Shown piece by piece: positions 7,028-34,671 of a stretch of DNA of 64,000 nt. Each line of letters begins with the position of its first letter. Position 1 is the stretch's first letter. The notes beneath the pieces were generated by a model, which was not told where the DNA came from, did no database searches, and saw only the letters and a program-made list of their open reading frames with translations. The stretch covers positions 10,200 through 74,199 of the forward strand of contig CAVUIH010000009.1 of assembly GCA_963741555.1 (NCBI GenBank). The letters run 5' to 3'. The DNA is from an uncultured Actinomycetota bacterium (GTDB lineage: Bacteria > Actinomycetota > Actinomycetes > Mycobacteriales > Mycobacteriaceae). A program made the position numbers and the translations under genes.

Positions 7028-8354
7028 TCAGGCTACGCGGCGCCCCAGGCAGCGCACGCGCCAGCCGGCCTGCTGCCAGCGCTGCACGTCGAGGCAGTTG
7101 CGGCCGTCGACCACGACACGGGCTCGTACCCGGTCGGCGAGCACGTCGGGGTCGAGCTCGACGAATTCCGGCCACTCGGTGAGCACCAGAACGGCGTCGG
7201 CGCGGTCACACGCTTCCTCCACCGATACGGCGTAATTCAGCGTGGGAAACAGTCGCCGGGCGTTCTCCAGCGCCTTGGGGTCGTAGACATTGACCGCGGC
7301 ACCGTTGAGCTGCAGCTGGCCCGCGACGTTAAGGGCCGGTGAATCGCGGACGTCGTCGGATTCGGGCTTGAATGCGGCGCCGAGCACCGCGATGTTCGCG
7401 CCCAGCAGCGACCCGCCGCAGGCGCTGGTGGTGATCTCAACCATCTTCGTGCGGCGGCGCATGTTGATGTTGTCGACCTCGCGCAGGAAGGTCAGTGCCT
7501 GGTCAGCGCCAAGCTCGCCGGCGCGTGCCATGAACGCTCGAATATCTTTCGGCAGGCAGCCACCGCCAAAACCCAAGCCGGCGTTGAGGAATCGGCGTCC
7601 GATACGCGGGTCGTGGCCGAGCGCATCGGCCAACAGCGCAACGTCGGCTCCAGCCGCTTCGCACACCTCGGAGATCGCGTTGATGAACGAGATCTTGGTC
7701 GCCAGAAAGGCGTTCGCGGAGACCTTGACCAGCTCCGCGGTCTGCAGATCAGTCACCAGGAACGGGACACTCGGCGTCGAGCATCGGCGCATACAGTTCG
7801 CGGATCGCGGCCTCGGCGCGCATCGACCCGTCCTGAACGCCGAGCACGATGCGGTCGGGCCGCAAGGTGTCCTGTACGGCAAATCCTTCCCGCAGAAACT
7901 CGGGATTCCAAGCGATTTCGACGTCGACACCGGGCCGTGCGGCGTCGCGAGCCCGCTGAACCAGGTCGGCGGCGGTGCCGACCGGAACGGTGGACTTACC
8001 GACAATCACCGACGGTCGGGTCAATCGCGGTGCGAGCGTGTCGATTACGGCGTGGACGTGACTCAGGTCGGCGCCGTACTCGCCCCGCTTCTGCGGGGTG
8101 CCGACGCCGAGGAAATGCACCTCGGCGAAGTCAGCGGCCAGATCGTAGTCGGTGGTGAACTGCAAGCGTCCGGCTGCGATGTTGTCTTGCAACATCTTTC
8201 GCAGGCCAGGCTCGTAGAAGGGAACGTCACCAGCAGCCAGCTTGGCGACCTTACCGGGATCGATGTCGACGCCGACAACCTCGTGCCCCAGTTCGGCCAT
8301 CCCCGCAGCGTGGGTAGCACCCAGATAACCCGTTCCGAAAACGGAGCACCTCAT
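7028..8354 (-). CDS. udgA: UDP-glucose 6-dehydrogenase; one frameshift near 7770
   Basis: GTGYLG, KSTVPVGT, NPEFLREG in 7749..8414; KVSANAFLA, GFGGGCLPKD, AFKPESDDVRDSP in 7028..8005. Confidence 0.93.
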
Positions 8355-8470
8355 ACACCCGTGTGTAAGCGGCTGCAATGATCTGATGGCATCGCTCTTC
8401 TGAGCGATGGGCAAACGTCAGATGACGGTTTGCAGTCGACGGCTAAAAGCCCAGGCCGGCAATGCTCGGC

Positions 8471-10001: not shown

Positions 10002-10165
10002 TTCTCCTCCAAGCTGTTCGCCCGCTCACCGGGTCAAAAGGATTGCCGGGGTTCCTCAGGTTCTGGCAGAAGCGGCGCGGATCATTGTCCGGTTATTTGC
10101 CACTTCGACTTTACCGACGGCGGAACCGGGCGGCTATGGGTTGACGACGCAATTCCCGGCGGTCA

Positions 10166-11606
10166 CTAACGGCCGTGGCCGCCACCGTGACCCCAGCCAC
10201 CGCCGCCGTGACCCCAGCCGCCGCCGCCGTGGCCCCAGGGGCCACCGTGGTCGCCGCGGTCGCCGCCCCACGGGCCCGGGCGGGCGGGCCGAACAGCGGG
10301 GGTAAGCCGGGTATCGGAATCGGAATCGGTGCGGGCACGGGCGCTGGGCCGGGAACGAAGGCGGGGGCCGGCGCCGGGCGCGGAACGAAGACGGTGCAGG
10401 TGCCGGCGCTGGGGCCGGATGGAATACGGGGGCTGGCGCGGGCGCCGCGACCGGCGCGGGCGGGGCCGCCACCTGCGCCTTGGGCAACGGGGCCGGGGCC
10501 GGGGCCGGCAGCGGTCGAGCCGGAGCGACCACGTTGTGGCTGAGACTGGGCCGCGAGCTTGCTGACGGTCGGATACTGAACGCCAGCGAGATCACCAATG
10601 CCATGACGCCGGTCACAAAAATGATCAACACGCTCATCGCCGCCAAAAACGGTGTGCGACTGACGTGTTCGTGCTCCATTGCACCGAAATCCGGGTACAT
10701 GCCGGTGGTGAAGTCGTTGTCTTCGCCGGCATACGCGTCGGCGCCCATCTGGGTGTAGACCGCGGCAGAGTCGTCGGCGACGGCGCTGTAGGCCAGCCCG
10801 TCTTCGCGCGGCTCGGCAGCGACAGCCTCGGCGACCGCGAGGTATCCCGGCTCGTGGACGTGCGGGCTGACCGCACCGGTGCCCGGGTCGAGCGCGTAGG
10901 CCTGCGCGGCCGTCGACGACGCGAACAGTGGTGCATTCGCCGACGCGAGTGCCGCGCCTCGGGCCAGCGCCATCTCGGGCTGGTCGGGCATGCTCAGCGG
11001 AAGCGACGTCGCGCCTTCCAGCGCCGGCTTGATCAGCGGAATGTCGACCCCGGAGCCGATGACCAGGACGCCGTCAGGCTCGTCGTCGAGCCGCTCGGCG
11101 GCGGAGACCAGATCAAGCAGTTTCGACACTGCCTGGTCGTCGTCGTCGGGCAATATCTCGCGGTGAACGTCGGTGATCGACCCGTCGTTGGTATCGACCA
11201 CTGCCAGCGTCGCGGTTTCGGGCTCGACATACAGCAGCGCGGCGCGGGCGTATCCCGTCGCGGCGCCCATCGACTGGGCCAATGCCGCCGCGGCAAGAAA
11301 CGTCGAGACAAGCATCACGTTCTCGACCTTGCGCGCCGCCAATGCGTCGCGCAGTTCGGCAGCATCGCGCGGATTACTCCACGTCACACCGGTTGACAAC
11401 AGCTCGTAACCGGCCTCGTTGGCGCCTTCACGAGTGCCCAGAATCGCCGCAACCACCTGATCCGGCGCCCTCAAGGTTGCCGGGTCTTCGCCGTCGGTGA
11501 CGACGAAACTGTCCTCATCGACGGTCACACCGTCGGCGTTTTCTCCCTCAACCAACACGATGCGGACCGTCGTGGGTGCCATCGATACACCAAGTACCGT
11601 GTCCAC
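10166..11606 (-). CDS. Paralog B: same architecture with Gly/Trp/His tail; frameshifts near 10390 and 10280
   Basis: GGAGG + GTG (VDTVLGVSMAPTTVRIVLVEGENADG); last frame reads GPWGGDRGDHGGPWGHGGGGWGHGGGGWGHGGGHGR to TAG at 10166-10168. Confidence 0.8.
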
Positions 11607-11820: not shown

Positions 11821-13738
11821 CTAGTGATGCCCGCCCCCTCCGCTGTGGCCACCGCCACCAAACCCGCCGCTGTGGCCGCCACCGCCAAAGCCACCGCCGC
11901 CGAAGCCGCCACCACCGAAGCCGCCACCGCCGAAGCCGTGGCCACCCCCGAATCCGCCGCCGGGGCTGCCCCCGAAACCGCCCAAGCCGGGGATACCGCC
12001 AAAGCCGCCGCCGGGCATACCGCCGAAGCCGGGGTTGCCGCCGAAACCGCCATCGTGCGGCGGTCCACCGAAGCCGGGGATACCGCCGAAACCGCCCAAG
12101 CCGGGGTTACCCCCGAAACCGCCGCCTGGCGGGCTGAACGGCCCGTGCATCGGCGGACCATCGAACCCCGGACCACGGACGCCGTCCGGCGGCCCGCCCG
12201 GCGGCTCGAAGCCCGGCAGCCCTGGCAACGGCATGTGTGCCGGCGGCTCGGGCGCGACTGCCGCTCGGAACCGGCTCCTGCGGCTGCGGCGGAATGTGGA
12301 CAGGGATCGGCAGGTGCACCGGCGGCGGCTGGTGCGGAACGCTCACCGGAGGTTGCTGCGGCGACGGGAGCCATATCGGCGGCTGCTGCGGCGCGAGATG
12401 CACCGGCGCCGGGCTCGGCACATGCAACGGAGCGATGTGAATTGGAGGGCTGGCCGGAATCGGAAGCGGAACGACAACCGGTGCAGGGGCGACGATCGGC
12501 ACGGGCGGCGCAGCGGCGAGAACCGGAGCGGGCGCCGGAGCCGGAATCGGTGCGCGCACCGGTGGAGCCACCACCGCGGGTGCTGGAATCGGATGAGCTT
12601 GCGGCACAGGGATACTCACCGGCGCCGGGGCAGGTGCAGGCGCAGGTGCGGCCGGGATGATCAGGCTTTGCAACGGGCGGGGCAGCAAGGCAACACTTGG
12701 CCGAACACCAAGCGCCAGTGCGACTTCCAACGACAGCGCGGCGGCAACCACGACAACCGCGAGCATGCTTCCGAGGAGCACGAGCGGCCGGCGCTCGGAG
12801 CCGCCGTCGAAGAGCTCGTCGCGCGGGGCGCCCGCCGCGGCGGTGGGGGCTTGAGCTTCGTCGTCCGACAGGGCGTCCATCGCAGCCGTGTGGGCGTCGG
12901 CTTCCTCATCGGGAAGGGCGCTGTAGGCCAGGTCGTCTTCACCGAGCTCAGTGCCGAACGGAACATCTGGCACCGCAAGGTATCCCGGGGAGACGGCGTA
13001 GGGATCGATTGCGCCGGTGCCGGGATCTTGCGCATACGCCAACGCCGCGGTCGACGAGGCGAACAGCGGCGCGTTGGCCGATGCCAGCGCCGCGCCCCAC
13101 GCCAACGCGGTCTCCGGCTCTTCGGCTGCGGTGACCGGCAGCAGCGTCACGGTCTCCAGTTGCGGCTTGATCGTGGCGACGTCCACCCCGGTGCCGACGA
13201 TGAACACGCTCTGCGGACGCGTTTCCAGCGCTTCCAGACCGGCCACCATCCCGGCTAGCGTCGCGACAGTGTCGATGCCAGACAGCACCTCTTTGTGGAC
13301 ATCGGTGATGGAGCCGTCGGCGGAGTCGACGATGGCCAGCGTCGCGGTGTCGGGTTCGAGGAAGAGCAATGCGGTGTGCGCGTCGCCGACGGTGTTACCG
13401 ACCATCTGCGTCAGTGCGGCCGCGGCCATGAACGCCGACACCAGCATGACGTTTTCGACCTTGCGGGTGGCCAGAGCCGAATGCAGTGCGGCGGCGTCCA
13501 CCGGATCGGTCCAGGTGACGCCGGTCGATCCGAGCGCGTGACCGGCTTCGGCGGCGCCCTCCCGGGTGCCCAGAATCGCCGAGATCACCTGATCGGCAGC
13601 GCTGAGCGTCGCCGCGTCGTCGTCGGTGGCGATGTCGAAGGTGGTGTCCTCGACGGTGACGCCGTCGGCGTTCTCACCTTCGACCAGCAACATCCGGACA
13701 GCTGTGGGTGCCATCGACACCCCGAGCACGATATCCAC
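11821..13738 (-). CDS. Paralog C: same architecture with long GGFGG tail ending HH; frameshift near 12250
   Basis: GGAGG + GTG (VDIVLGVSMAPTAVRMLLVEGENADG); ORF 12107..13750 joins ORF 11821..12234. Confidence 0.82.
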
Positions 13739-14497: not shown

Positions 14498-14571
14498 GCC
14501 GATGTAGTTCAATGGCAGAACATCAGCTTCCCAAGCTGAATACGCGGGTTCGATTCCCGTCATCGGCTCCA
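14498..14571 (+). tRNA. glyU: tRNA-Gly (anticodon CCC) with encoded CCA
   Basis: Acceptor GCCGATG/CATCGGC, anticodon arm TCAGC-TTCCCAA-GCTGA, T-loop GGTTCGATTC, 3' TCCA. Confidence 0.97.
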
Positions 14572-14803
14572 CTTCTGACTGCGCCGATGCTGTTCGAAGC
14601 AGCGCTCAGTGGCAACTCGATTTGAATCGCGCCAGCTGGTTTCAGCGCGTCACTCGGTCCTCGACACGCTACCGACGCCGAGCGTCGACAAGGTGCGGAG
14701 CTACGAGTTGGCGCGCCGGTTCGGCAGCTGAACGCCTTCTTAATCCAGTCTTGACTTCTAGGATTCTCTGATCAACGGCGGACCGTGCTGATGGGAGGTT
14801 GCA

Positions 14804-15343
14804 CTGAAGCGCAGGAAGCTGTCGGCCATCGGACAGCGCTTCGAGCGCTCGCGAGTCGGCGAGTTCGCGATCAGCGTCGTTGTCGTGCTGGCGCTGACAA
14901 TCGGCGTGGTGTGGAGCATGCCGGACGCCGAATTCAAACGACGGCTCGTACCGGTGCTGCAACCGGTCGCTGTGGCGACGGGGTTGGAGCAGGACTGGCG
15001 GATGTACGCCCCAGAGCCGCTTGGGCGACTGGAATGGGTCGAAGTGCGTGTCACCATGGCCGATGGCGTCCAGCGGGTGTGGACGCCTCCGCGCGGCGAC
15101 CGGGTGGGGGGAGCGTTCGCCTGGTATCACTGGCAAAAGTTGAAGGAAAATCTCGTCGACGTGCCGGCGATCCGAGTTGATATGGTGCACTGGGCAATTC
15201 GTCAGGTCACCGACCGTTCTGAGCGTGCCGCGCGGGTGCAAATGGTCCTGCGCACCGAGTTACTCCCGGCCCCGGGAACCGACAGCCCCCGCACGGTCAC
15301 CGAGGAAATCCTGTACGACGAGATCTTGGCCGGCGGCCGATGA
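14804..15343 (+). CDS. SdpA/DUF5819-like membrane-anchored partner of the HTTM protein
   Basis: N-terminal hydrophobic helix, LEQDWRMYAPEP (QxWxx[FY]AP motif), ATGA overlap with HTTM gene; start either CTG 14804 or GTG 14885. Confidence 0.65.
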   Translation: MKRRKLSAIGQRFERSRVGEFAISVVVVLALTIGVVWSMPDAEFKRRLVPVLQPVAVATGLEQDWRMYAPEPLGRLEWVEVRVTMADGVQRVWTPPRGDRVGGAFAWYHWQKLKENLVDVPAIRVDMVHWAIRQVTDRSERAARVQMVLRTELLPAPGTDSPRTVTEEILYDEILAGGR

Positions 15344-16416
15344 GCGAGCCATCAAGCCGCCAGCGGCGTTGGCCGGCTACCGCGGTGGCGAGCTGGCGGA
15401 CGTTTTGGTTTCGCCCGCAGCCGGCCTACACCCTCGGTCTGGTCAGGATGGCGTTCGGAGCGGTGGCGATCGGCTGGACACTCTCTCTGCTCCCTGATCT
15501 ATATGCGTTGTTCGGCCGGCACGGAGTCGAGCCGCAGCAGCCTGAGAGTGCCTATCAGTGGAGTGTTTTCGCGATCTGGACCAGTGACCATGTGCTGCTC
15601 ATCGGATGGATCCTGCTGCTGCTGTCGTCGGTAGCGCTGACGATCGGCTGGCGCAGCCGACTGGCCGCTTTGGCGGTATTTGTGCTGATCTTGTCGTTCC
15701 AGCACCGCGACGTGTGGGTTTTCAATTCCGGCGATCTCGCTGTCCGCATTGAAGCCTTGTTCCTTGCGATCTCGCCGTGCGGGGTGGCGCTTTCGCTCGA
15801 CCAGGCACGCAGCACCGGCAAGTTCTGGTCGGCGCAGCAGCGCCCGCAATGGCCGGTGCGGTTGATGCAAGTGCAGCTGTCGTTGATCTATCTCGCGTCG
15901 GCGCAGGCCAAGCTGAATGGCAAAGCGTGGCCGCAGGGCACCGCCGTGTCCTACGCTCTGCGGCTGCCGGACATGCTGCTGCTGCCTACGCCGCACTGGT
16001 TTGCGACCAGCGCGCTCCTGATGAACGCCGTCACCTGGGCCGCGCTCGCCATCGAGCTTTCAATTGGGATTCTGGTGTGGAACAAGCGATTACGGCCGTG
16101 GGTGCTGGCGGCGGGCGTCGTGATGCACACCGCGATCATGATTACCATCGCGGTTGGATTTTTCACCCTGGCCATGTTCGTCCTCTATCTCGCGTTCGTC
16201 CCACCCGACGTAGTCGAGCGTCTTCCGCGTAGCGCAAAAGATATGGCGAGGAAGCTGGCGGGGCTTGCTCGACCTAGGCCGAAATCCAGGAATCAGGAGG
16301 AGATTTCGGACGCGGCAGCAGACGACGGAGTTGTCGCCGAAAGTCCAAAGTCCCGCTGGGACTATCGCCGAAGACTAGGCAAAGGCGACACCGCGGACCG
16401 GTCGGCTGAGCTATAG
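15340..16416 (+). CDS. HTTM-domain membrane protein (SdpB / vitamin K-dependent carboxylase-like)
   Basis: LGLVRMAFG, FNSGD, ALSLD, RLMQVQLSLIYLASAQAKLNGxxWxxG, MHTAIMITIAVGFF; multiple TM helices. Confidence 0.85.
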   Translation: MSEPSSRQRRWPATAVASWRTFWFRPQPAYTLGLVRMAFGAVAIGWTLSLLPDLYALFGRHGVEPQQPESAYQWSVFAIWTSDHVLLIGWILLLLSSVALTIGWRSRLAALAVFVLILSFQHRDVWVFNSGDLAVRIEALFLAISPCGVALSLDQARSTGKFWSAQQRPQWPVRLMQVQLSLIYLASAQAKLNGKAWPQGTAVSYALRLPDMLLLPTPHWFATSALLMNAVTWAALAIELSIGILVWNKRLRPWVLAAGVVMHTAIMITIAVGFFTLAMFVLYLAFVPPDVVERLPRSAKDMARKLAGLARPRPKSRNQEEISDAAADDGVVAESPKSRWDYRRRLGKGDTADRSAEL

Positions 16417-17997
16417 GTGACCGCCACCGGTGGTCAATGCATGGCCGGTGGTCAACCCATGGCCGGTCCCGCCGCCCGTCGTGCTACCGCCACCGTCGTC
16501 CCACCGCCCGTCGTGGCCGTCCCCGTCGTTCCGCCGGTCGTGGCGGTGCCCGTCGTTCCGCCGGTCGTCGTTCCGCCGGTCGTGGCGTGCCCGTCGTGCG
16601 CCGGTCGTCGTTCCCCGGTCGTTCGCGTACCTGTCGTTCCGCCGGTCGTCGTTCCCCGGTCGTGCGTGCCCGTCGTGCCGCCGGTCGTCGTTCCACCGGT
16701 CGTACCGCCCGTCGTCGTTCCACCGGTCGTACCACCGGTCGTCGTCCACCGGTCGTCGTTCCACCGGTCGTACCGAGGTGGTCCCACCGGTCGTCCCGGT
16801 CGTTCCGCCCGTCGTCGGTGGTTCCACCCGTCGTCGTCCCGGTGGTTCCACCCGTCGTCGTCCCGGTGGTTCCACCCGTCGTCGTCCCGGTGGTTCCACC
16901 CGTGGTGCCGCCGGTCGTGGTACCTCCCGTAGTCATACCGCCGGTCGTGCTCGGGTGTGGATGCGGAAACGGGATCGGATAGGAACGGGGATCGGAACTG
17001 GGATCACCCCGGGCGCCGGTGGCGGCCCGGCGTCGGGCGGGGGTGCCGGCGGTGGCGCTTGATCTGCTCCACCGCCACCTCCGACCGCAGGCCCCGGACC
17101 ACCTTGGGGGACAACGGCATCCGGGGCTGGCAACTGGTGGCGCCTGGACGACCGGCGCAGGTCGCGTATTCGGCGCCGGCAAGGCAGGGACGAAGTTTCC
17201 CGGAACCGACTTCTGCTGCGCCGGCGGCGGCGGTTGTGGATGCGTCGCGGCGGTCGGGCGGACGCCGATCGTCACCGCGACGGCTAACGCCGCAATTCCA
17301 GCGACCAGCATTCCACCGGCCGCGCTGCCCACCAGCAGGGCCCGGCCGGCTGGCACTGCGGCAGCATCGAATTCTCATCATCATCATCGCCGCCGTATTC
17401 CATCGGGAGCAGTTCGGAGTCGTCGTCCTCCATCGAGTACGCCAACTGCGACTCCATAGCCGCGGCCCTCGTCGCGACCTCGTCACCCGTGAACGCCTCG
17501 GTCATCGGCGCTGCAGCTGACAACATGGTTTCCTCGCCAGTCGTCGAGGAGAACGAGCCGGTCGGCGGCACCGGTGCCAACGTGGTCGCGTCACCGGCGG
17601 GGTAGGACAGCCGGCCCGTCGCCGCGTCTAAGGCTGCGCCGCGGGCGACCGCGAAGTCAGGGTCATCCGGCACCGCCAGCGGCAGAGAAGACATCGCCGT
17701 TGCTGCATCAGAGTCGGACAACACCGCGACGTTCTGAACGCCGGAGTCGTTCAACACCTGCCTCAGCTGATCGGCCAGGTCTTGATCCGACCAGCACAGC
17801 CGGGTCGCGACCAGCCGGTGATATTGGTCTGCCAGAGACCGGCTTGTACCGACGACCGTCTCGGTCAGTCTCGCGATCGGATCCTCCGCGAGGTCGACGA
17901 CCGACTCATCGATGACCCCATGGGCACCGTTTCCCGTTTCGATGAGAGCCAAGCGGGCAACCGGACCGTCGACTGCGACCCCTAGAGCTAGGTCCAC
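16411..17997 (-). CDS. Paralog D: shortened actin-fold domain + TM + Pro stalk + long Thr/Gly tail; multiple frameshifts
   Basis: GAGGAGG + GTG (VDLALGVAVDGPVARLALIE), PDFAVARGAAL, QLAYSMEDDD, TM ending VTIGVRP, IPVPIPVPI, TTGG repeats, end GGGHL. Confidence 0.72.
16440..16950 (-). repeat. Coding tandem repeat of TTGG/TTTGG/TTG units, including about 3.7 perfect 24 bp copies at 16816-16903
   Basis: Plus-strand unit CGGTGGTTCCACCCGTCGTCGTCC starting at 16816, 16840, 16864 and partially 16888. Confidence 0.92.
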
Positions 17998-18312
17998 CGC
18001 GGACCTCCTCTCCACTGCTGCCGCATCGGCATGGTCGCCAGTCAATCACGATCTACCAGGGCAAGTCCGAGGCAAGAATGCCGAGCTTCGCTATACCTCG
18101 GCGATTATCAGTCATTGGCGAGAGAATGCCAGCGCAATTGTCAGTTTTGCTTCGCCTCATGTGTCTGTCGAATTAGCCGGTACAACCTCGTGCTGGATCG
18201 GCGCACAGCGGATACCGTCACAGACGAGCCGCGCAATTTGCCGAGCAGGGTGCTAACTCGGCGCATAACTTAACCGGTGCCGAACCGCAGTATCACATTC
18301 CAGGGAGATCTC

Positions 18313-20234
18313 GTGAGCCAAAGGCACGATGACCCGGCCACCCAGAACTTCGCCACCCAACGTCTCTCAGCCGGACAGGGCACACCGCCGCCCCCAAGAC
18401 ACCCCGCTCCGAACGAGCCATCGGCGAAGCGATGGAATATCGGTCGCGACGTCCTCGCCGGCGTGCTGTTGGTCATCGCGCCCCTCTTCCCGTGGAACCT
18501 GTACTTCGGCATCGGTATCCCGCACAGCAGCGGTGCGTTGTTTGCGCTGCTGGCTGTGGTGACCGTGCTCTCGCTGGCAGCTGTCGCGGTGACCTATGTG
18601 ATCGGCTCACGCCCGGGCAATAGCGTGGCCGGTCGACTCCGAGTGGCGCTCACCGCGCCATACGTGTTGCTGGTGGCGGGCTTCGTCGGTTTCGACGTCG
18701 TGCAGACCATCCGCTACGGCGGCAGCGGCAATGTGCCGGGTGGCGTGGGTCCAGGCGCATGGCTCGGGATCAGCGGCGCACTGTTGACTGCGCAGCCTTC
18801 GATCACCGGCGCGGCCACCGACGACGGCAGCCTTCGAAAGTGGCCGATGTCGGCTCGGATCGTGGGCTACACGTCCATAGCCCTTGCGGCGCTGGCTGTT
18901 TTGTTCAACCTGTTCTGGCGGACAAAAGCCGCCTTCCCAGGCTCGGCAGACTCGTCTGGCTTCGGCAGACAGAATATGGCGATCATTGCGACGGCAGTGG
19001 TGTACGGCGTTGTGGCGCTGGTCCCCGTCGTCGTGGCAGCCAGGTGGATTCTGCAGAGCAGCAGCAGGTCCTCTCGGCTGGCGACCATAGCTCTCGGAGC
19101 GTCCACGCTGATCGCCGGCGTTGTCGTCTGGGTCCTTCCCGCCGGCCGCGAGATCGACGGGTTCCATAGCATCGCACAGAACACGTCGACGGCTGGGGTG
19201 GGATTCGAGGGCTATCTGGCGTGGGTTGCGGCCGCAGCCATATTCGCGCCGCTGACCCTGCTCAGCGTGGCAACCAACCAGCAGATCGACCGAGGTGTCT
19301 GGCGGGTAGCCGCACGAAAAGGCTTACTACTGATCGCTGTTTGGTGCCTGGCTTCCGTGCTGATGAGAGCAACCGACGTCATCGTTGCCGCCGTTTTGCA
19401 TCTGTCGCGCTCGCCGTACGACAGCGCGGCAATAGCCACATTCGATGTTCTGACCGCGGCGCTTGCGCTTTGGCTTCGCGGGAACCTCCTCAGCCGCTTT
19501 TTCCCGGTCGCCGTCATCTCATCACTGTGCGGAGTTCTTCTGGTGCTCAGTGTTTCTCGCATCGTGCTGGGCATCGCCTTATCTCCCCGAATTGCAGGTA
19601 CGCCCCCCGGGGGCGGCAACCCGGTCTACGGAAACAATCTCGCCCAGCAGATCACCAGCACCTTCGATGCCGTGCTCAGCGGGCTAGCCCTGTGCATCCT
19701 CGTCGTGGCCATCATCACCGCACGCTTTGTACAACGTCGCCCACACGCTAAAGGCAAGGGGGGACAACCAGGTCCGGCCTGGTGGCTTCGGATGCCGAGA
19801 CGACGCGACTGCGCATCCCCGGCGCAGCGGAATCAACCGCCCCACGACGGCAACAGCCAACGCCCCCGCCGCGGATCCATCGTCCAACGGAACAGCCCAC
19901 GCGCCGGATAGACGTCCGCTCCGGGGGGCGTGAGGACGCGACACAACAGCTATCGACCCATGCGCCCCGGATCTTCCGGTCCGACGACTCGGAGGCAACG
20001 CCCCATCGCCCCGCCGCCTCAGCGTCCCGGCCAGCAATCATCGACAAGCACGCCGAAAATCCATCGGGCTCAACCAAATCCGGCGTGAGCGTCCTCGCGG
20101 TGGACCAACGCATGAAGGTGGCCCTCAGGGGTGAGCGCTGCGGCGTCGTTGTGGCCAAAGCAACGGGGTCCGAAGCCCGCCGCCTTAAGACAATTGCGGA
20201 CACCGAAAACCCCCCAATCGACTTCCCAAGCTGA
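18313..20234 (+). CDS. Polytopic membrane protein of unknown function with disordered termini; probable frameshift near 19775
   Basis: AGGGAG + GTG; about a dozen hydrophobic segments in 18277..19911; tail continues plausibly in 19782..20234. Confidence 0.7.
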
Positions 20235-20248
20235 ATACGCGGGTTCGA
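20222..20248 (+). repeat. att-like duplicate of tRNA-Gly anticodon loop to T-arm
   Basis: 27/27 identity with 14527-14553, then degenerate. Confidence 0.9.
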
Positions 20249-20364
20249 CTCCACGTTGAGCAGCGCCGACGCTAGGTGCCGTGATGTCCGATTCTCCGAT
20301 GAAGGCCGCTGTTTCGCGCTAGATTTCCCGCAAGCCTTCCCGTGCTGCCGAATAGGGGCGCATC

Positions 20365-21417
20365 GTGACTCGTGTTCTCGTGACCGGCGGGTACGGCCGG
20401 GTCGGCAGGGCGGTGGTGGCGCGGCTCGTCGCTGACAAGTTTCAGGTGGTCGTCACGACGCATAAGACCGTGAAACCCTCACTGCCGGTCGGTGTGGATG
20501 TCCGTCCCGTGGATCTGAGCCAACCCGATCAGGTCAAAGCCCTCGTCGACGATCTGTCGCCGTCTGTGATAGTTCACTTGGCTGCCGTCGTCCCGCCACG
20601 GTGTTACACCGATCGCACGTTTGCCCGTGCGGTCAACGTCGACGCCACCGCTGCCCTGGTGCGTGCCGCGACGCAACGGCCGTCACCCCCTCGTTTCGTG
20701 CACGCATCCACCGGGGCGGTGCACGGTATCCGGAACCCACACCGGGCCACCAATCCGGTGACACCCGACTCACCGCTGGCGCCGGTCGACCTGTACGGCT
20801 GTCACAAAGCCTTGGCCGAGAACATTGTGCGGTCATCAGGTTTGGAGTGGTCGATCCTTCGGCTCTGCAGCGTCATTGCGCTTGATCAACTTGCCCACTT
20901 CCGAAATACCGATGCGTTCTATTTCCGTGCGCTGGTACCCGAGGACACCCGAGTCCACACCGTCGACCCTCGCGATGTCGCGGCGGCGTTCGCGGCAGCG
21001 ATCACCACCGACGCGGTGCGGGAAGTTTTCATGATTGGCGGAGACGACTCCCATAAGCGGGTATGGGGCGAATTAGCGCGGGAGAACGCCGAGGTGATGG
21101 GACTCGCCGCAGCGATGTTTCCGGGCCGACCGGGCAACCCGGACAGCGACACGGACTGGTACCCGTTGGGCTGGTTCGACACCACTCGCGCACAGCAAGT
21201 CCTGTCTTTTCAACACCACTCCAGCGCGGCCGCGTACGCCGAGATTCGCGCAAGAGTGGGCTGGAAGTCGCGCCCGCTACACATCGCGGCGCCGGCGTTG
21301 CGCGTACTCATGCAGCGCCAAGCGCCATACTTCAAGGCACCCGGTCGTTACGCCGACCCCTGGGGCGCGATCCGGAAGAAGTGGGGCGATCCAGCACCGG
21401 ACGCGTTGACGGTTTAA
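20365..21417 (+). CDS. NAD-dependent epimerase/dehydratase (extended SDR)
   Basis: VLVTGGYGRVG, VHLAA, YGCHKALAE (YxxxK). Confidence 0.88.
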   Translation: MTRVLVTGGYGRVGRAVVARLVADKFQVVVTTHKTVKPSLPVGVDVRPVDLSQPDQVKALVDDLSPSVIVHLAAVVPPRCYTDRTFARAVNVDATAALVRAATQRPSPPRFVHASTGAVHGIRNPHRATNPVTPDSPLAPVDLYGCHKALAENIVRSSGLEWSILRLCSVIALDQLAHFRNTDAFYFRALVPEDTRVHTVDPRDVAAAFAAAITTDAVREVFMIGGDDSHKRVWGELARENAEVMGLAAAMFPGRPGNPDSDTDWYPLGWFDTTRAQQVLSFQHHSSAAAYAEIRARVGWKSRPLHIAAPALRVLMQRQAPYFKAPGRYADPWGAIRKKWGDPAPDALTV

Positions 21418-21667
21418 CCGGGTCGCTCTCGTTACCAAGGCGATTGAGAACACGCTGCGCCGCTCTCGCGTTGGACACGCGACTCGCGCAATTCCCCTGC
21501 GCTTGCGGTATCGAGAAAGAGGCTGGCGCCCCGGCTTTCTCGTAACCATACAAGCGGAATCATCAGCCGCCGGTGATCACGCGTGGACGAGGTCCGCCGC
21601 CTCCTTCTCGACCGGCGCGCGCCACGGCGACCCGCTTCGGACGGCTCCGCCGTCCTCGCGATCGCCA

Positions 21668-22879
21668 CTAGGCGGCGGATTTCTCCAGGATGTGCACGCC
21701 GCACGCCGACCCCAGACCGATCACATGGGCCAGACCGACTTTGGCGTTTGCGATCTGCCGGTCGCCGGCTTCGCCGCGGAGGTGATGGCAGATCTCCCAG
21801 ATGTTCGCGATACCGGTCGCCGCGATGGGATGCCCCTTGGATTCCAGGCCGCCTGAGACGTTGACCGGGATCGAGCCGTCGCGCCACGTCGCACCGGAGT
21901 TGAAAAAGTCCGCGGCGCCGCCCTTTTCGCACAGCATCAGGTTGTCGTAGTGCACCAGCTCAGCGGTGGCGAAGCAGTCGTGCAGCTCGACCAGGTCAAG
22001 GTCGCCCGGGCCGATCCCGGCCTGCTCGTAGGCGGTCGCGGCGGCGTTGCGGGTCAGCGTGTTGACGTTCGGCAGCACCTGACAACCGGCCTCGTAGGGA
22101 TCGGTGGTCAACACCGACGCCGACACTTTGACCGCGCGTCGCCGTTGCTCCAGCGACAGCGACTTCAATGTCTCGCCATTGCACACCACCGCGGCAGCGG
22201 CGCCGTCGCAGTTGGCCGAACACATCGGCCGAGTGTTCGGGTAGGCGATCATGACGTCGTTCATGATCTGCTCGAGGGTGAACTTCTTCTGATAGGCGGC
22301 CAGCGGGTTCAGTGTCGAATGGGCGTGGTTCTTCTCGCTGATCTTGGCGAACAGCTCGAAACTCGTACCGCCGTATTTGTGTCCGTATTCAGTGCCGATT
22401 TGTGCGAACACTCCCGGCATGGCCTCGGTGCCGATGCGTCCGTCGATCGGCGCGACGGCGCCGTAACGACCTTTGGGCTCCCAGACGTCGGCGTCATCCT
22501 TTTTCTTTCCGCCACCGCCAAGCAAACCGGCGCCGGACAGCTTTTCCACGCCGACCGCCAATCCGTATTTCACCTCGCCGGCCTTGACGGCCATGATCGC
22601 GGTGCGCAGTGCGGTCGCGCCGGTGGCGCACGCATTGGCCACGTTGTACACCGGGATGCCGGTCTGGCCGATCTGCTTTTGCAACTGCTGACCGATGCCG
22701 GCGTTCGCGGCCATCAAGTTCCCGGCCGCGATCACCCCGATATCGGCCATCGTCACACCCGCGTCGGCGAGCGCGCTGGTCGCTGCTTCGGCCGCCAGAT
22801 CGACAGTGTCTTTATCCGCGTGCTTGCCGAATTTGGTCATCCGGATTCCAACGATCCAGATCTCGTCGCTCGCGCTCAT
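21668..22879 (-). CDS. Thiolase family protein (SCP-x/lipid-transfer type)
   Basis: NACATG, ELHDCF, NVSGGLESKGHPIAATG. Confidence 0.9.
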   Translation of the reverse strand: MSASDEIWIVGIRMTKFGKHADKDTVDLAAEAATSALADAGVTMADIGVIAAGNLMAANAGIGQQLQKQIGQTGIPVYNVANACATGATALRTAIMAVKAGEVKYGLAVGVEKLSGAGLLGGGGKKKDDADVWEPKGRYGAVAPIDGRIGTEAMPGVFAQIGTEYGHKYGGTSFELFAKISEKNHAHSTLNPLAAYQKKFTLEQIMNDVMIAYPNTRPMCSANCDGAAAAVVCNGETLKSLSLEQRRRAVKVSASVLTTDPYEAGCQVLPNVNTLTRNAAATAYEQAGIGPGDLDLVELHDCFATAELVHYDNLMLCEKGGAADFFNSGATWRDGSIPVNVSGGLESKGHPIAATGIANIWEICHHLRGEAGDRQIANAKVGLAHVIGLGSACGVHILEKSAA

Positions 22880-32493: not shown

Positions 32494-34520
32494 CTAGTAG
32501 CCGTACCCCGGATTCATGTAGGGGTTCTGCGGCATGTACGGGCTCTGCTGCTGGTAGGGATTCTGCTGCTGATACGGGTTCTGCTGCTGGTAGGGGTTCT
32601 GCGGCTGCTGACTCGCCCCGCCCTGTCCCTCGGGGACCTGCACAGGTATCGGTACCGGCACGAAGGGCAGATTCAGATACGTCGTCGTCATCGCCACCGT
32701 CGGCGACGTGCTCGGCGGCGGGGGCGGCGGAGGTGACGTGCTCGGGGTAGTGCTCGTCGCCGGCGGCGTCGTGGTCGTCGGCTGCTGCGTGGTGGTCGTG
32801 ACCGGCGCCCTGGTGGTCGGCGGTGGTTCATACGTGGTCACGGCGGCGGCGGTGGCGGCGGCGGCGCTTCGCTGGTCGGCGGCGGCGCCTCGGTGACGGG
32901 TGGGGGCGGCGCTTCGGTGGGTGACGGCGCCGCGCTGGGCGGAGGCGGCAGCGGGCTCGGCGATGGCAGCCGCGAGCTCACTGGTGGCGGCGGCACCGCC
33001 GTGGTGCTGCTCGGCAAGGTGGGTGCCCGGCTACCCGGGCTGCTCGTCAACGTGAACGCCACACCGCCGATGGCGACCATGGAGACCAGTGCGGCAAGCC
33101 CCAAAAACAGCTGCGGCAACCGATTTCCGCGCTGCTGCAGATCGAGCGATTCGACCCTCGGCAATGCCATGAGCTGTGACGGCGTGGCGCGGTTGTCGTC
33201 GTCGTCATAAGGTTCGCCGGTGTAGAACACCGGCTCGTCGCCGGAATCGTCAGCTTGCGACCAGGCCAACTCCTGCGGCGCCTCCGACGGAGCGCCGTTG
33301 AAGAACGCATCCGCCGGGGCGGTGAACGTGCCGGTCGATGCGTCGAAGGTGCCGGTGGGGGCGCCGAGCGCATCCGTCGGCGCGGCGAAAGTCCCGCTCG
33401 ACGTGGCGAAGCTGCCCGTCGATGCACCGACCAGCGTGGCCATCGTCGGCACTTCGACCGCGTCCTGCTCCTTCTCCTCGATCGGATGCCGGGCCGCCAG
33501 CATCACCGCGCCGACCGCCATCGCGAATCCGGGCTGCACGGCCGTGATCACCGACGCTTTGGTGTGCGACGAAAGACGCTGAGCGACAACCGGAATCTTG
33601 GCACCGCCACCGGCCATCGCCACTGCGGCGATGTCTTTGCAACGAATTCTGTTGGTACGCAACACGTCATCGAACTCCGCGAGCAAACCGCCGAGTCGGG
33701 CCTCGATCAGGGTGTCGAGCTCGGCCCGGCTCACCTCGACGCGTGAGCGCTGGCCGGGTAGTTCAACCACGAGCTCGGTGGACGTTTCTTTGGACAGCCG
33801 CTCCTTGGCCAGACGGCATTCCTCACGCAGACCGGCGAATTGCGCGACTACACCGGTGCTCGCCGGATCGGCGCCGTTGCCGTGACCGACGCTGTCCAGC
33901 ACGTGAATCATGAGCGCCTGGTCGACGAGGTCGCCGGAGAATTCCGGATACCGCACGGTGTCGACGATCGGGGTGAAGCCCGACGCGGCGTCGGCCAGGG
34001 TGATGCTCGTCCCGCTGCCACCGAAATCCAGCAGCGCGACAACACCATTGGCCGGCAGGTGGGAATCGGCGTTCAAGGCGGTCAGCGCGGCAGCGGAGTC
34101 CGTGACCAGTCGCGGAGAGATGCCATCGTGCACGAAGCCGGCATGGGTGCTCAACGCGTCTTGCAGGACCCGCAACGCGCCCGCGCCCCAATAACCCGGA
34201 ACGGCCATGGTGATGTTCGAGTTCGACGCGTCACCGCCACTCGCGGTGATCAACGCATCCAGCGCCTCGACCAGCAGGAGCGCCGGGTCGTGGTTCGAAC
34301 CGTCGGCAGGCTTGAGCTCGTTCGACCTCCCGACCCGCTCGACGAAGCCTGCCATCAACGTGCCGGTGTCAGCTCCGTCGTTGTCGTCAACGGGCACACC
34401 AAGTTCCGGCGCGCGGTCGGGAAAGAGCGTCAGCACAGCGCGACGCGAGACGGGAGGATTCCCGCTACGGACCGCGACGAGATTAGTGGTCCCGATTGAT
34501 AACCCCAACGGGTCATACAT
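32494..34520 (-). CDS. Hsp70-like membrane protein with Pro/Thr stalk (Rv0312 orthologue); frameshift near 32845
   Basis: LGLSIGTTNLVA, LLDFGGSGT, CRLAKERLS, AGGGAKIP, ELAWSQ, TM helix; tail in 32494..32841. Confidence 0.85.
32518..32610 (-). repeat. 18 bp coding repeat, about 5 copies (QxQNPY)
   Basis: QQPQNPY QQQNPY QQQNPY QQQSPY MPQNPY. Confidence 0.9.
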
Positions 34521-34671
34521 AAAACGATTACTTTCGTCGATAGCAGTCGGTGGCCAGGGTCAACCATAACGGCGGTCACGCTACGACGATCGGGCACAAC
34601 ATCATCGGTATCCGGTCGATGCGGATGTGTCACCGAAGTGATACAGCAGGCGCCTTGACAGGCGATGCGTG

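What the first reader, a model, noticed from the sequence alone, without database searches (positions are those of the whole stretch)
14804..17997. SdpA-like + HTTM modifier pair facing a Thr/Gly-repeat surface protein: candidate enzyme-substrate system
Seen: translationally coupled pair (QDWRMYAP protein; HTTM protein with NSGD and YLASAQAKL) convergent on paralog D, with no SdpC-like toxin ORF evident. Established: Bacillus SdpA/SdpB mature the exported peptide SdpC, and HTTM is the membrane core of vitamin K-dependent carboxylases, which use a Lys in a similar YxxxxxxKL helix. Inference: the pair may modify or process an exported protein, most simply the (TTGG)n tail next door, which would be a post-translational modification I do not know of in mycobacteria.
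Basis: partly seen in the sequence, partly recalled or inferred. Interest (0 to 1): 0.72.

Follow-up and report, generated by a model that had tools for sequence, protein, structure and literature searches.

The report
Split vitamin-K-carboxylase-like membrane enzyme pair
Two overlapping mycobacterial genes encode a two-part membrane enzyme related to the human vitamin K-dependent carboxylase, but comparison with about 60 related loci gives little support for the neighbouring Thr/Gly-tailed protein being its substrate.

Summary
A small one-helix protein (14804/14885-15343) overlaps by ATGA an HTTM-domain membrane protein (15340-16416). Both face the 3' end of "paralog D", which carries a (TTGG)n tail.

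The pair is best read as a split relative of vitamin K-dependent carboxylase:
- A profile match to human GGCX keeps Lys191 (=K218), Trp197, His263 and Phe275. The Glu-binding Asn-His is Ser-Gly here.
- A complex model passes its controls (ipSAE 0.85 against 0.00).

The partner is a weak DUF5819 relative, not an SdpA-family member. No SdpC exists in the assembly.

The enzyme-substrate idea is weakly supported:
- The pair is adjacent in all 20 loci examined. D lies beside it only in one clade (8 loci); 11 more distant pairs sit in at least seven unrelated contexts.
- D orthologues are always paired with DUF7937. They occur in many HTTM-less genomes, with other tail types.
- Three of four complete HTTM-bearing genomes have no double-TTGG coding tract; the fourth has one isolated hit.
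- D is frame-broken here as assembled.

TTGG-type tails were seen only in the adjacent-pair clade, which counts as one lineage. This scan has noted such pairs before on other DNA, and a 2026 preprint describes the class. Verdict: new member of a known kind, substrate unknown.

The parts
14498..14571 (+). tRNA-Gly(CCC). Context only, not part of the module.
   Evidence: ARAGORN. Among the 39 related loci scanned, a tRNA-Gly lies near the pair only in G244, and there it is 4.3 kb away.
14804..15343 (+). Layout: short basic N-terminus, transmembrane helix, then an alpha+beta ectodomain with the conserved loop GLEQDWRMYAPEP. It is 179 aa from CTG 14804, or 152 aa from the first canonical start, GTG 14885.
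   Evidence: - Open frame and conservation upstream of GTG 14885.
- Pfam DUF5819 at 20.5-21.1 bits, below the 27.1 cut-off.
- 38 of 91 relatives match DUF5819.
- AF2 model with pLDDT 92.1.
- ESM Atlas match to a DUF5819 cluster, TM 0.57.
15340..16416 (+). HTTM-domain polytopic membrane protein, 358 aa. This is the membrane core of a vitamin-K-dependent-carboxylase-like enzyme. Its start overlaps the partner's stop (ATGA).
   Evidence: - PF05090 at E=1.6e-17.
- Profile match to human GGCX chains at E=1e-5, with K191=K218, W197=W223, H263=H287 and F275=F299.
- 918 homologues in the protein database; the closest are 89% identical.
16411..18045 (-). Paralog D, a neighbour and not shown to belong to the module. 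It is a divergent DUF7159-type protein: N-terminal cytoplasmic domain, transmembrane helix, Pro-rich stalk, (TTGG)n tail. It is frame-broken as assembled.
   Evidence: - ORF fragments 17284-18045, 16484-17356, 16452-16787 and 16411-16899.
- Indels against the intact G244 orthologue.
- Intact orthologues of 472-687 aa in six relatives; a seventh, in G266, is itself frame-broken in its tail.
18277..19911 (+). DUF7937 polytopic membrane protein, divergent from D. This is D's constant neighbour.
   Evidence: - PF25592 at E=8e-114.
- Present in 200 of 400 Mycobacterium genomes.
- A D orthologue lies beside it at every locus examined.

Best explanation

Shown or modelled here:
- The HTTM protein supplies the membrane core. 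It keeps the residues that in human GGCX deprotonate and oxygenate vitamin K hydroquinone and hold CO2: Lys191, Trp197, His263 and Phe275.
- The small one-helix partner packs its transmembrane helix against that core.
- The partner lays its conserved GLxQxWxMYAPxP loop and ectodomain over the Lys191/NSGD region.
- That site is on the outer face of the membrane.

Inferred:
- The complex uses the cell's own menaquinol plus O2 to make a strong base.
- The base abstracts a proton from a substrate on the extracytoplasmic side, followed by carboxylation or another carbanion-type reaction.
- The two residues that hold the glutamate side chain in GGCX (Asn159-His160) are Ser-Gly here, so the substrate is probably not a Gla-type glutamate.

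On the substrate:
- The pair is a self-contained, patchily distributed two-gene module whose substrate gene is not linked to it.
- The Thr/Gly-tailed neighbour is a clade-specific syntenic neighbour. It belongs with DUF7937, not with the enzyme.
- The substrate remains unknown. It could be a protein or peptide encoded elsewhere, or an envelope lipid or small molecule.
For: Family and active site:
- HTTM family membership.
- Profile-to-GGCX match at E=1e-5 over 228 profile positions, with K218, W223, H287 and F299 conserved.
- PMC12647623 reports that N159A, H160A, W223A and F299A impair carboxylase activity.
- K191 is Lys in 18 of 19 homologues. N129, G131, D132, W197 and H263 are invariant.

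Pairing of the two genes:
- The partner gene sits directly upstream of the HTTM gene in 20 of 20 loci.
- Where gene calls were made, the overlap is usually 4 bp.

Complex model:
- ipSAE 0.85, best of 3 controls 0.00. This mark was reached by 58 of 80 solved complexes and by 2 of 110 mismatched pairs.
- The runs agree in at least 90% of contacts, and partner pLDDT is at least 81.
- Partner residues 57-78 touch HTTM residues 126-141 and 183-197.

Published parallel:
- A 2026 preprint independently models a DUF5819 + HTTM pair as GGCX-like. It notes that MloH is the fused form.

Autonomy of the module:
- The 11 distant pairs lie in at least 7 unrelated contexts. Neighbours include acyl-CoA dehydrogenase, 5-FTHF cyclo-ligase, NmrA-like, ADH, L,D-transpeptidase and enoyl-CoA hydratase.
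- No small ORF is conserved beside the pair across contexts.
- HTTM is present in 60 of 400 Mycobacterium genomes, DUF7937 in 200 of 400.
Against: - No biochemical activity is shown for any DUF5819 + HTTM pair. Catalysis, cofactor and reaction type are inferred from homology.
- The complex pass may partly reflect the model's memory of GGCX-like folds.
- The AF2 model of the HTTM protein alone was poor (pLDDT 54.6), so residue equivalences rest on sequence alignment only.
- The partner's fold has no significant solved counterpart: Foldseek best E 0.13, VIA best Z 4.4. Its equivalence to the GGCX luminal clamp is therefore not confirmed here.
- One homologue has Arg at the Lys191 position.
- Within the closest clade, all 8 loci with enough flanking DNA keep D next to the pair, so a clade-specific link is not excluded.
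Confidence: 0.7

Rival explanations
1. In this clade the pair modifies the extracytoplasmic (TTGG)n tail of paralog D. One option is Thr chemistry like the HTTM-dependent Thr-to-dehydrobutyrine step of linaridins; another is a new carboxylation.
For: - D is the immediate or near neighbour of the pair in all 8 clade loci with enough flanking DNA, and in the window.
- Tails with T 38-50% and G 41-47% occur in 6 of 8 'HTTM adjacent' orthologues and in none of about 28 readable HTTM-less orthologues.
- G327 has a (TTTG)n tail and also carries a pair, on another contig.
- The modelled active site and the tail are both on the outer side of the membrane.
- In linaridins the HTTM-type LinG/CypH is genetically required for peptides whose defining feature is dehydrated Thr.
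Against: - The correlation is one lineage, so effectively n=1.
- The genes are convergent, not co-transcribed.
- Unrelated genes intervene in 2 clade loci: a permease-like gene in one, glycosyltransferase-like and STAS-like genes in the other.
- 11 of 20 pairs have no D or DUF7937 nearby.
- HTTM-bearing genomes G259, G175, G495, G331 and G517 have Pro/Thr or Pro-rich D tails.
- Complete HTTM-bearing genomes G077, G210 and G267 have no double-TTGG tract anywhere, and G384 has one isolated hit.
- The tail has no Glu or Asp to carboxylate.
- No conserved precursor-like small ORF was found, and Pfam found no LinE-type hydrolase among the neighbours scanned. LinL was not searched for.
- D is frame-broken here while the pair is intact.
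Confidence: 0.08
2. An SdpAB-type peptide-toxin maturation system. Its SdpC-like or linaridin-like precursor would be unrecognised or encoded elsewhere.
For: - The same gene logic as sdpAB: a small partner immediately upstream of an HTTM membrane protein.
- A weak TIGR04033 (SdpB) match, E=2.5e-12.
- Earlier notes of this scan found small secreted cargo beside some such pairs in other phyla (unchecked).
Against: - TIGR04033 scores 47 bits against a cut-off of 178.4.
- TIGR04034 (SdpA) and TIGR04032 (SdpC) find nothing in the genome, while the B. subtilis control is found.
- 0 of 91 partner relatives hit any NCBIfam model.
- No small ORF is conserved beside the pair across 8 contexts.
- No immunity or transporter genes are nearby.
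Confidence: 0.07
3. The pair is not a quinol-dependent enzyme. It would be a structural or transport membrane complex that merely keeps the HTTM fold.
For: - The Glu-binding Asn159-His160 of GGCX is not kept.
- One homologue has Arg for Lys191.
- The preprint reports a blocked canonical substrate channel in its DUF5819 + HTTM model.
Against: - Lys191, Trp197, His263 and N/G/D129-132 are near-invariant across 19 homologues sharing 51-86% identity with the window's protein. That conservation is hard to explain without a catalytic site.
- The partner's most conserved loop sits on that site in the model.
Confidence: 0.1

Closest known systems
DUF5819 + HTTM(-DCC1) two-gene cassettes, modelled as a split bacterial vitamin-K-carboxylase-like complex (bioRxiv 10.64898/2026.08.19.745780; Melghirimyces thermohalophilus example)
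   Same: - An adjacent small protein (N-terminal transmembrane helix plus ectodomain) next to an HTTM membrane protein.
- A confident predicted heterodimer.
- The conserved Lys/Trp/Phe triad: Lys189/Trp195/Phe273 there, Lys191/Trp197/Phe275 here.
   Different: - The mycobacterial HTTM protein has no DCC1-like C-terminal domain.
- The partner falls below the Pfam DUF5819 cut-off and matches only profile positions 19-48.
- Neither system has a known substrate.
[quoted passage not shown]
   Same: - The HTTM membrane core.
- The catalytic Lys218 and Trp223, His287 and Phe299 align with identical residues.
- The active site lies on the non-cytoplasmic face.
   Different: - GGCX is one 758-aa chain with a luminal clamp domain. 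Here the enzyme is split, and the second part is an unrelated-looking 179-aa protein.
- Asn159-His160, which bind the Glu carboxylate (PMC12647623), are Ser130-Gly131 here.
- No propeptide-bearing substrate is known.
Bacillus subtilis SdpA/SdpB (with SdpC) and YitP/YitO (with YitM)
   Same: A small partner gene directly upstream of an HTTM membrane protein gene. SdpAB are needed to mature an exported peptide (established knowledge).
   Different: - Neither protein reaches the SdpA or SdpB family thresholds.
- There is no SdpC, SdpI or SdpR.
MloH (malonomycin) and linaridin LinG/CypH
   Same: Bacterial HTTM enzymes acting on non-Glu substrates. MloH carboxylates an Asp-derived intermediate. LinG is required for Thr-derived dehydrobutyrine peptides.
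   Different: - MloH is a fusion inside a PKS-NRPS cluster.
- Linaridin clusters carry LinA, LinE, LinL and LinM.
- No conserved precursor ORF or biosynthetic cluster gene was seen at this locus or at the 11 more distant pair loci. LinL was not searched for.

Membership tests
HTTM domain (Pfam PF05090) | Match to the family HMM above the gathering score | tested here: met
   64.4 bits against 27.7, covering 258 of 259 profile positions. Whole-genome scan gives 65.2 bits.
Vitamin K-dependent carboxylase (GGCX-type enzyme) | Catalytic Lys218 and the vitamin K/CO2 pocket residues Trp223, His287 and Phe299 | tested here: met
   Profile A1 against GGCX chains, E=1e-5: K191, W197, H263 and F275 align with them. 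K191 is Lys in 18 of 19 homologues; W197 and H263 are invariant.
Vitamin K-dependent carboxylase (GGCX-type enzyme) | Glu-binding Asn159-His160 | tested here: not met
   These positions align with Ser130-Gly131 of the invariant N-x-G-D motif. Their role in GGCX is taken from PMC12647623.
Vitamin K-dependent carboxylase (GGCX-type enzyme) | Single chain with a fused luminal clamp domain | tested here: not met
   The protein is 358 aa with only a disordered C-terminal tail. A separate 179-aa partner is predicted to bind it.
Vitamin K-dependent carboxylase (GGCX-type enzyme) | Quinol- and O2-dependent carboxylation activity | not testable with these tools
   Needs biochemistry.
SdpB family (TIGR04033) | Score above the curated cut-off | tested here: not met
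   47 bits against 178.4.
SdpA family (TIGR04034 / Pfam SdpA) | Match to the family model | tested here: not met
   - No hit for the window protein at E<=1 in Pfam.
- 0 of 91 relatives hit any NCBIfam model at E<=0.01.
- The genome scan finds nothing, while the B. subtilis control is found.
sdpABC-type toxin locus | An SdpC-like exported precursor | tested here: not met
   TIGR04032 finds nothing in the 78.5%-complete assembly. No small ORF is conserved beside the pair across contexts.
DUF5819 (Pfam PF19136) | Match above the gathering score, and the same architecture (N-terminal transmembrane helix plus domain, next to HTTM) | tested here: inconclusive
   - The window protein scores 20.5-21.1 bits against 27.1, over profile positions 19-48 only.
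- Two Mycobacterium homologues pass, at 29.1 and 28.4 bits.
- 38 of 91 relatives match at E<=1e-3.
- Atlas DUF5819 cluster, TM 0.57 over 158 residues.
- The architecture and the HTTM neighbour are the same.
DUF5819 + HTTM complex | The two proteins form a heterodimer | tested here: met
   This is a prediction only: ipSAE 0.85 against a best control of 0.00. The mark was reached by 58 of 80 solved complexes and 2 of 110 mismatched pairs.
Linaridin biosynthetic cluster | LinA precursor with LinE (alpha/beta hydrolase) and LinL beside the HTTM-type LinG | tested here: not met
   - Neighbours are tRNA-Gly, D, DUF7937, an epimerase and proteins with no Pfam hydrolase match.
- No precursor-like ORF is conserved.
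- LinL has no Pfam model and was not searched for by sequence.
DUF7159 (for paralog D) | Match of the N-terminal domain to PF23717 | tested here: inconclusive
   - Window D: no hit at E<=1. Orthologue L046: E=0.0044, 17.1 bits against 27, spanning profile positions 1-199 of 206.
- tblastn links D orthologues to the window's DUF7159 paralogs B and C at E=1e-17 to 1e-23.
- The window and G244 copies lack about 100 residues of the domain.

The most novel reading that the evidence does not exclude
In the Mycobacterium xenopi/noviomagense-like clade, the split carboxylase-like enzyme was recruited to modify the Thr/Gly tail of the Rv0312-like membrane protein next door. The chemistry could be Thr dehydration, as suspected for linaridin LinG, or a new C-H carboxylation. 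That would be a menaquinone-dependent post-translational modification of a mycobacterial envelope protein. It would also explain why Pro-free TTGG tails were seen only where the pair is adjacent.
Probability: 0.07. Interest if true: 0.8.

Novelty: new member of a known kind. Interest (0 to 1): 0.33.

Why it matters
No bacterial DUF5819 + HTTM pair has a known reaction or substrate, yet the family is widespread: 918 HTTM homologues and 937 partner clusters were found here.

Mycobacteria make menaquinone and have a VKOR homologue (established knowledge). A quinol-driven strong-base enzyme on the outer membrane face would therefore be a new kind of envelope chemistry in this genus.

For this locus, the practical result is negative. 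The attractive enzyme-substrate story rests on synteny in one clade only. The module occurs in about 15% of sampled Mycobacterium species and moves between contexts, so its substrate should be sought genome-wide. Non-protein substrates should be included in that search.

Tried and rejected
- AF2 of the HTTM protein with a 19-row alignment gave pLDDT 54.6. It was too poor for a fold search and was not used.
- Foldseek against the PDB with the partner model (pLDDT 92) gave nothing better than E=0.13. VIA-align over 48,161 chains gave a best Z of 4.4 with no GGCX row. The claimed likeness of DUF5819 to the GGCX clamp could therefore not be checked.
- NCBIfam gave nothing for the partner family.
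- The idea that the pair is a tRNA-Gly-linked islet fails. Among 39 related loci, a tRNA-Gly near the pair is seen only in G244, 4.3 kb away with other genes between.
- The search for a conserved small ORF within 900 bp of the pair returned only the partner's own N-terminal extension.
- I could not decide whether D is a true pseudogene. Three other genes are also frame-split: UDP-glucose dehydrogenase at 7028-8417 and the tails of paralogs B and C. The genome is a 78.5%-complete assembly in 16 contigs, so assembly indels are as likely as decay.
- Homology between B. subtilis SdpA and DUF5819 could not be tested, because no SdpA sequence was available by reference.
Full report
**What is at the locus**

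The window is contig C9 of a Mycobacterium assembly of 4.45 Mb in 16 contigs, 78.5% complete. The features in order are:

| Coordinates | Strand | Feature |
|---|---|---|
| 14498-14571 | + | tRNA-Gly(CCC) |
| ends at 15343 | + | small ORF |
| 15340-16416 | + | 358-aa ORF, overlaps the small ORF's stop as ATGA |
| 18045 down to 16411 | - | paralog D, ORF fragments |
| 18277-19911 | + | DUF7937 membrane protein |

The 358-aa protein is a clear HTTM-domain protein: PF05090, E=1.6e-17, 64.4 bits against a cut-off of 27.7.

**The small partner**

The first canonical start is GTG 14885. That start would cut the only transmembrane helix in half.
- The frame is open from 14792.
- The stretch KLSAIGQRFERSRVGE plus the helix is conserved at protein level in all related loci, including distant ones.
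- The window and four relatives have no ATG, GTG or TTG upstream of the helix.

Family assignment:
- The protein matches Pfam DUF5819 only weakly: 20.5-21.1 bits against 27.1, over the GLxQxWxMYAP loop.
- Two Mycobacterium homologues pass the cut-off.
- A profile search of 1.84 billion cluster representatives found 937 relatives.
- Of 91 relatives sampled, 38 match DUF5819 and none matches any other Pfam or NCBIfam model.
- TIGR04034 (SdpA) and TIGR04032 (SdpC) find nothing in the genome, although both ring in the B. subtilis control.
- The HTTM protein scores 47 bits against the 178.4-bit SdpB cut-off.

So "SdpA/SdpB-like" describes the gene arrangement, not family membership.

Structure:
- With the 91-row alignment, AF2 gives a confident model (pLDDT 92.1). 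It shows an N-terminal helix, a transmembrane helix, and a four-stranded sheet with two helices.
- The model resembles unnamed actinobacterial Atlas clusters (TM 0.76) and a DUF5819 cluster (TM 0.57).
- It has no significant solved counterpart.

**Relation to vitamin K-dependent carboxylase**

A profile of 19 HTTM homologues hits human GGCX chains at E=1e-5 over 228 positions. The residue correspondences are:

| GGCX residue | Residue here | Kept? |
|---|---|---|
| Lys218 | Lys191 | yes |
| Trp223 | Trp197 | yes |
| His287 | His263 | yes |
| Phe299 | Phe275 | yes |
| Asn159-His160 | Ser130-Gly131 | no |

- PMC12647623 reports that Asn159 and His160 hydrogen-bond the substrate Glu carboxylate. 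It also reports that N159A, H160A, W223A and F299A impair activity.
- Lys218 as the catalytic base is established knowledge.
- Among the 19 homologues, Lys191 is Lys in 18. N129, G131, D132, W197 and H263 are invariant.

The quinol-oxygenation half of the site is kept and the glutamate-binding part is not.

**The two proteins as one enzyme**

- The partner gene is directly upstream of the HTTM gene in 20 of 20 loci from 20 genomes. Where gene calls were made, the overlap is usually 4 bp.
- The complex model supports binding but does not show it:
  - Score 0.85, best of 3 controls 0.00.
  - The mark was reached by 58 of 80 solved complexes and 2 of 110 mismatched pairs.
  - The runs agree in at least 90% of contacts, and partner pLDDT is at least 81.
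- The partner's helix (residues 20-38) lies on HTTM residues 19-24 and 171-183.
- The partner's conserved loop (57-78) lies on HTTM 126-141 and 183-197, that is on the NSGD loop and on Lys191/Trp197.
- The partner's N-terminus is strongly basic and its ectodomain follows the helix. This places the site on the outer face, as in GGCX.
- A preprint of August 2026 reached the same picture for a DUF5819 + HTTM-DCC1 pair of Melghirimyces. It noted that MloH of malonomycin biosynthesis is the fused form.
- The pass may partly reflect likeness to solved GGCX structures.

**Is the (TTGG)n protein the substrate?**

Paralog D is real, and its orthologues are intact in relatives.
- Six genomes carry single ORFs of 472-687 aa with the same layout. 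The parts are an N-terminal domain, an acidic linker, a transmembrane helix, PGNF(V/M)P(A/V)LP, a Pro-rich stalk ending IPIPIP, and a long (TTGG)n tail ending in His. A seventh orthologue, in G266, is itself frame-broken in its tail.
- D is a divergent paralog of the window's DUF7159 proteins.
- Another paralog in the window matches HSP70.
- A paper's table describes Rv0312 as a single-pass membrane, Pro/Thr-rich, "ATP binding" protein. That D belongs to the Rv0312 family is from my memory and was not tested.

The comparative evidence is mostly against a dedicated link:

1. HTTM occurs in 60 of 400 sampled Mycobacterium genomes and DUF7937 in 200 of 400.
2. D orthologues lie divergent to DUF7937 at every locus examined, about 48 in all, including about 30 from HTTM-less genomes. 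The conserved unit is therefore D plus DUF7937.
3. Only the 8 loci whose HTTM is at least 68% identical to the window's, and which have enough flanking DNA, keep the pair beside D. A ninth contig is too short to tell.
4. The 11 pairs at 50-64% identity have no D or DUF7937 within about 9 kb. They sit in at least seven unrelated contexts among housekeeping genes.
5. Within the clade, unrelated genes separate HTTM from D in two genomes. The two genes are convergent.
6. Of four complete HTTM-bearing genomes, three have no double-TTGG coding tract anywhere and one has a single isolated hit. In the window's own genome the only hits are in D.
7. HTTM-bearing genomes with the pair elsewhere have Pro/Thr or Pro-rich D tails.
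8. The tail has no Glu or Asp.

In favour:
- Tails with T 38-50% and G 41-47% occur in 6 of 8 adjacent-pair orthologues and in none of about 28 readable HTTM-less orthologues. Those are Thr/Pro, Gly/Ser or (GTNP)n.
- G327, with a (TTTG)n tail, carries a pair on another contig.
- This is one lineage plus one case, so it is a lead, not a test.
- Linaridins are a precedent for an HTTM-type protein being needed for Thr modification. However, no conserved precursor ORF was found here, and Pfam found no LinE-type hydrolase among the neighbours scanned.

**State of D in this genome**

Against the intact G244 orthologue (88% identical), the window has +2 nt at about 17377, +1 at about 17133 and -1 at about 16979, outside the repeats. 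The tail needs several further frame changes to read as Thr/Gly.

The tails of paralogs B and C are also frame-broken, and a UDP-glucose dehydrogenase gene is split at 7028-8417. ORFs of up to 1202 aa are intact. I cannot tell assembly indels from decay.

**Verdict**

- The pair is a new mycobacterial member of the DUF5819 + HTTM split carboxylase-like class. That class is described in a 2026 preprint and has been noted before by this scan on other DNA, in at least 29 genomes (unchecked notes).
- The proposed substrate link is not supported beyond clade-specific synteny.
- The substrate and reaction remain unknown.

Noticed in passing
window 14792-14885; L043-L046 upstream of the partner gene: The partner's conserved N-terminus (KLSxIGQRFERSRVGE plus the first half of the transmembrane helix) lies upstream of any ATG, GTG or TTG in the window and in four relatives. 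Other relatives have a canonical start there. This suggests a non-canonical start such as CTG 14804.
   Followed up: partly
window 10134-10400 (paralog B tail), 11821-12342 (paralog C tail), 16411-17377 (D): All three DUF7159-type paralogs change reading frame in their Pro-rich or low-complexity tails. B's His/Gly/Trp tip and C's GGFGG tail are in other frames than their main ORFs.
   Followed up: partly
window 7028-8417 (-): A UDP-glucose/GDP-mannose dehydrogenase is split into two overlapping frames: the N domain in 7749-8417, the central and C domains in 7028-8005. The stop-to-stop frame scan flags a further eleven or so same-strand overlaps in the window. Either the assembly has indel errors or the genome is decaying.
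   Followed up: partly
window 16411-19911 and about 48 related loci (L043-L102): D-type protein and DUF7937 form a divergent gene pair at every Mycobacterium locus examined. The extracytoplasmic tail of D is hypervariable in composition between species: (TTGG)n, (GTNP)n, (PTT)n, (PST)n or Gly/Ser. The transmembrane helix, the PGKFMPLLP-like motif and a C-terminal His are kept.
   Followed up: partly
window 17284-18045; L043 7170-7841: The window's D and its G244 orthologue lack roughly 100 residues of the N-terminal domain that the other clade members have (472 aa against 597-687 aa).
   Followed up: no
window 32838-34559 (-), with 32494-33030: Another paralog-like protein matches Pfam HSP70 (E=1e-20). 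This suggests the DUF7159-type N-domains are actin/HSP70-like ATPase folds. It also has an overlapping downstream frame.
   Followed up: no
G232 C8:414968-418326; G077 C1:619557 and 645379: Some Mycobacterium genomes carry two or three HTTM copies, including a tandem duplicate in G232. In G077 one copy lies in a 656-aa open frame with one TGA.
   Followed up: no
L043 (G244) compared with window 14498-22879: Gene order differs between the two closest genomes. In G244 the epimerase lies between tRNA-Gly and the pair. In the window it lies after DUF7937.
   Followed up: no
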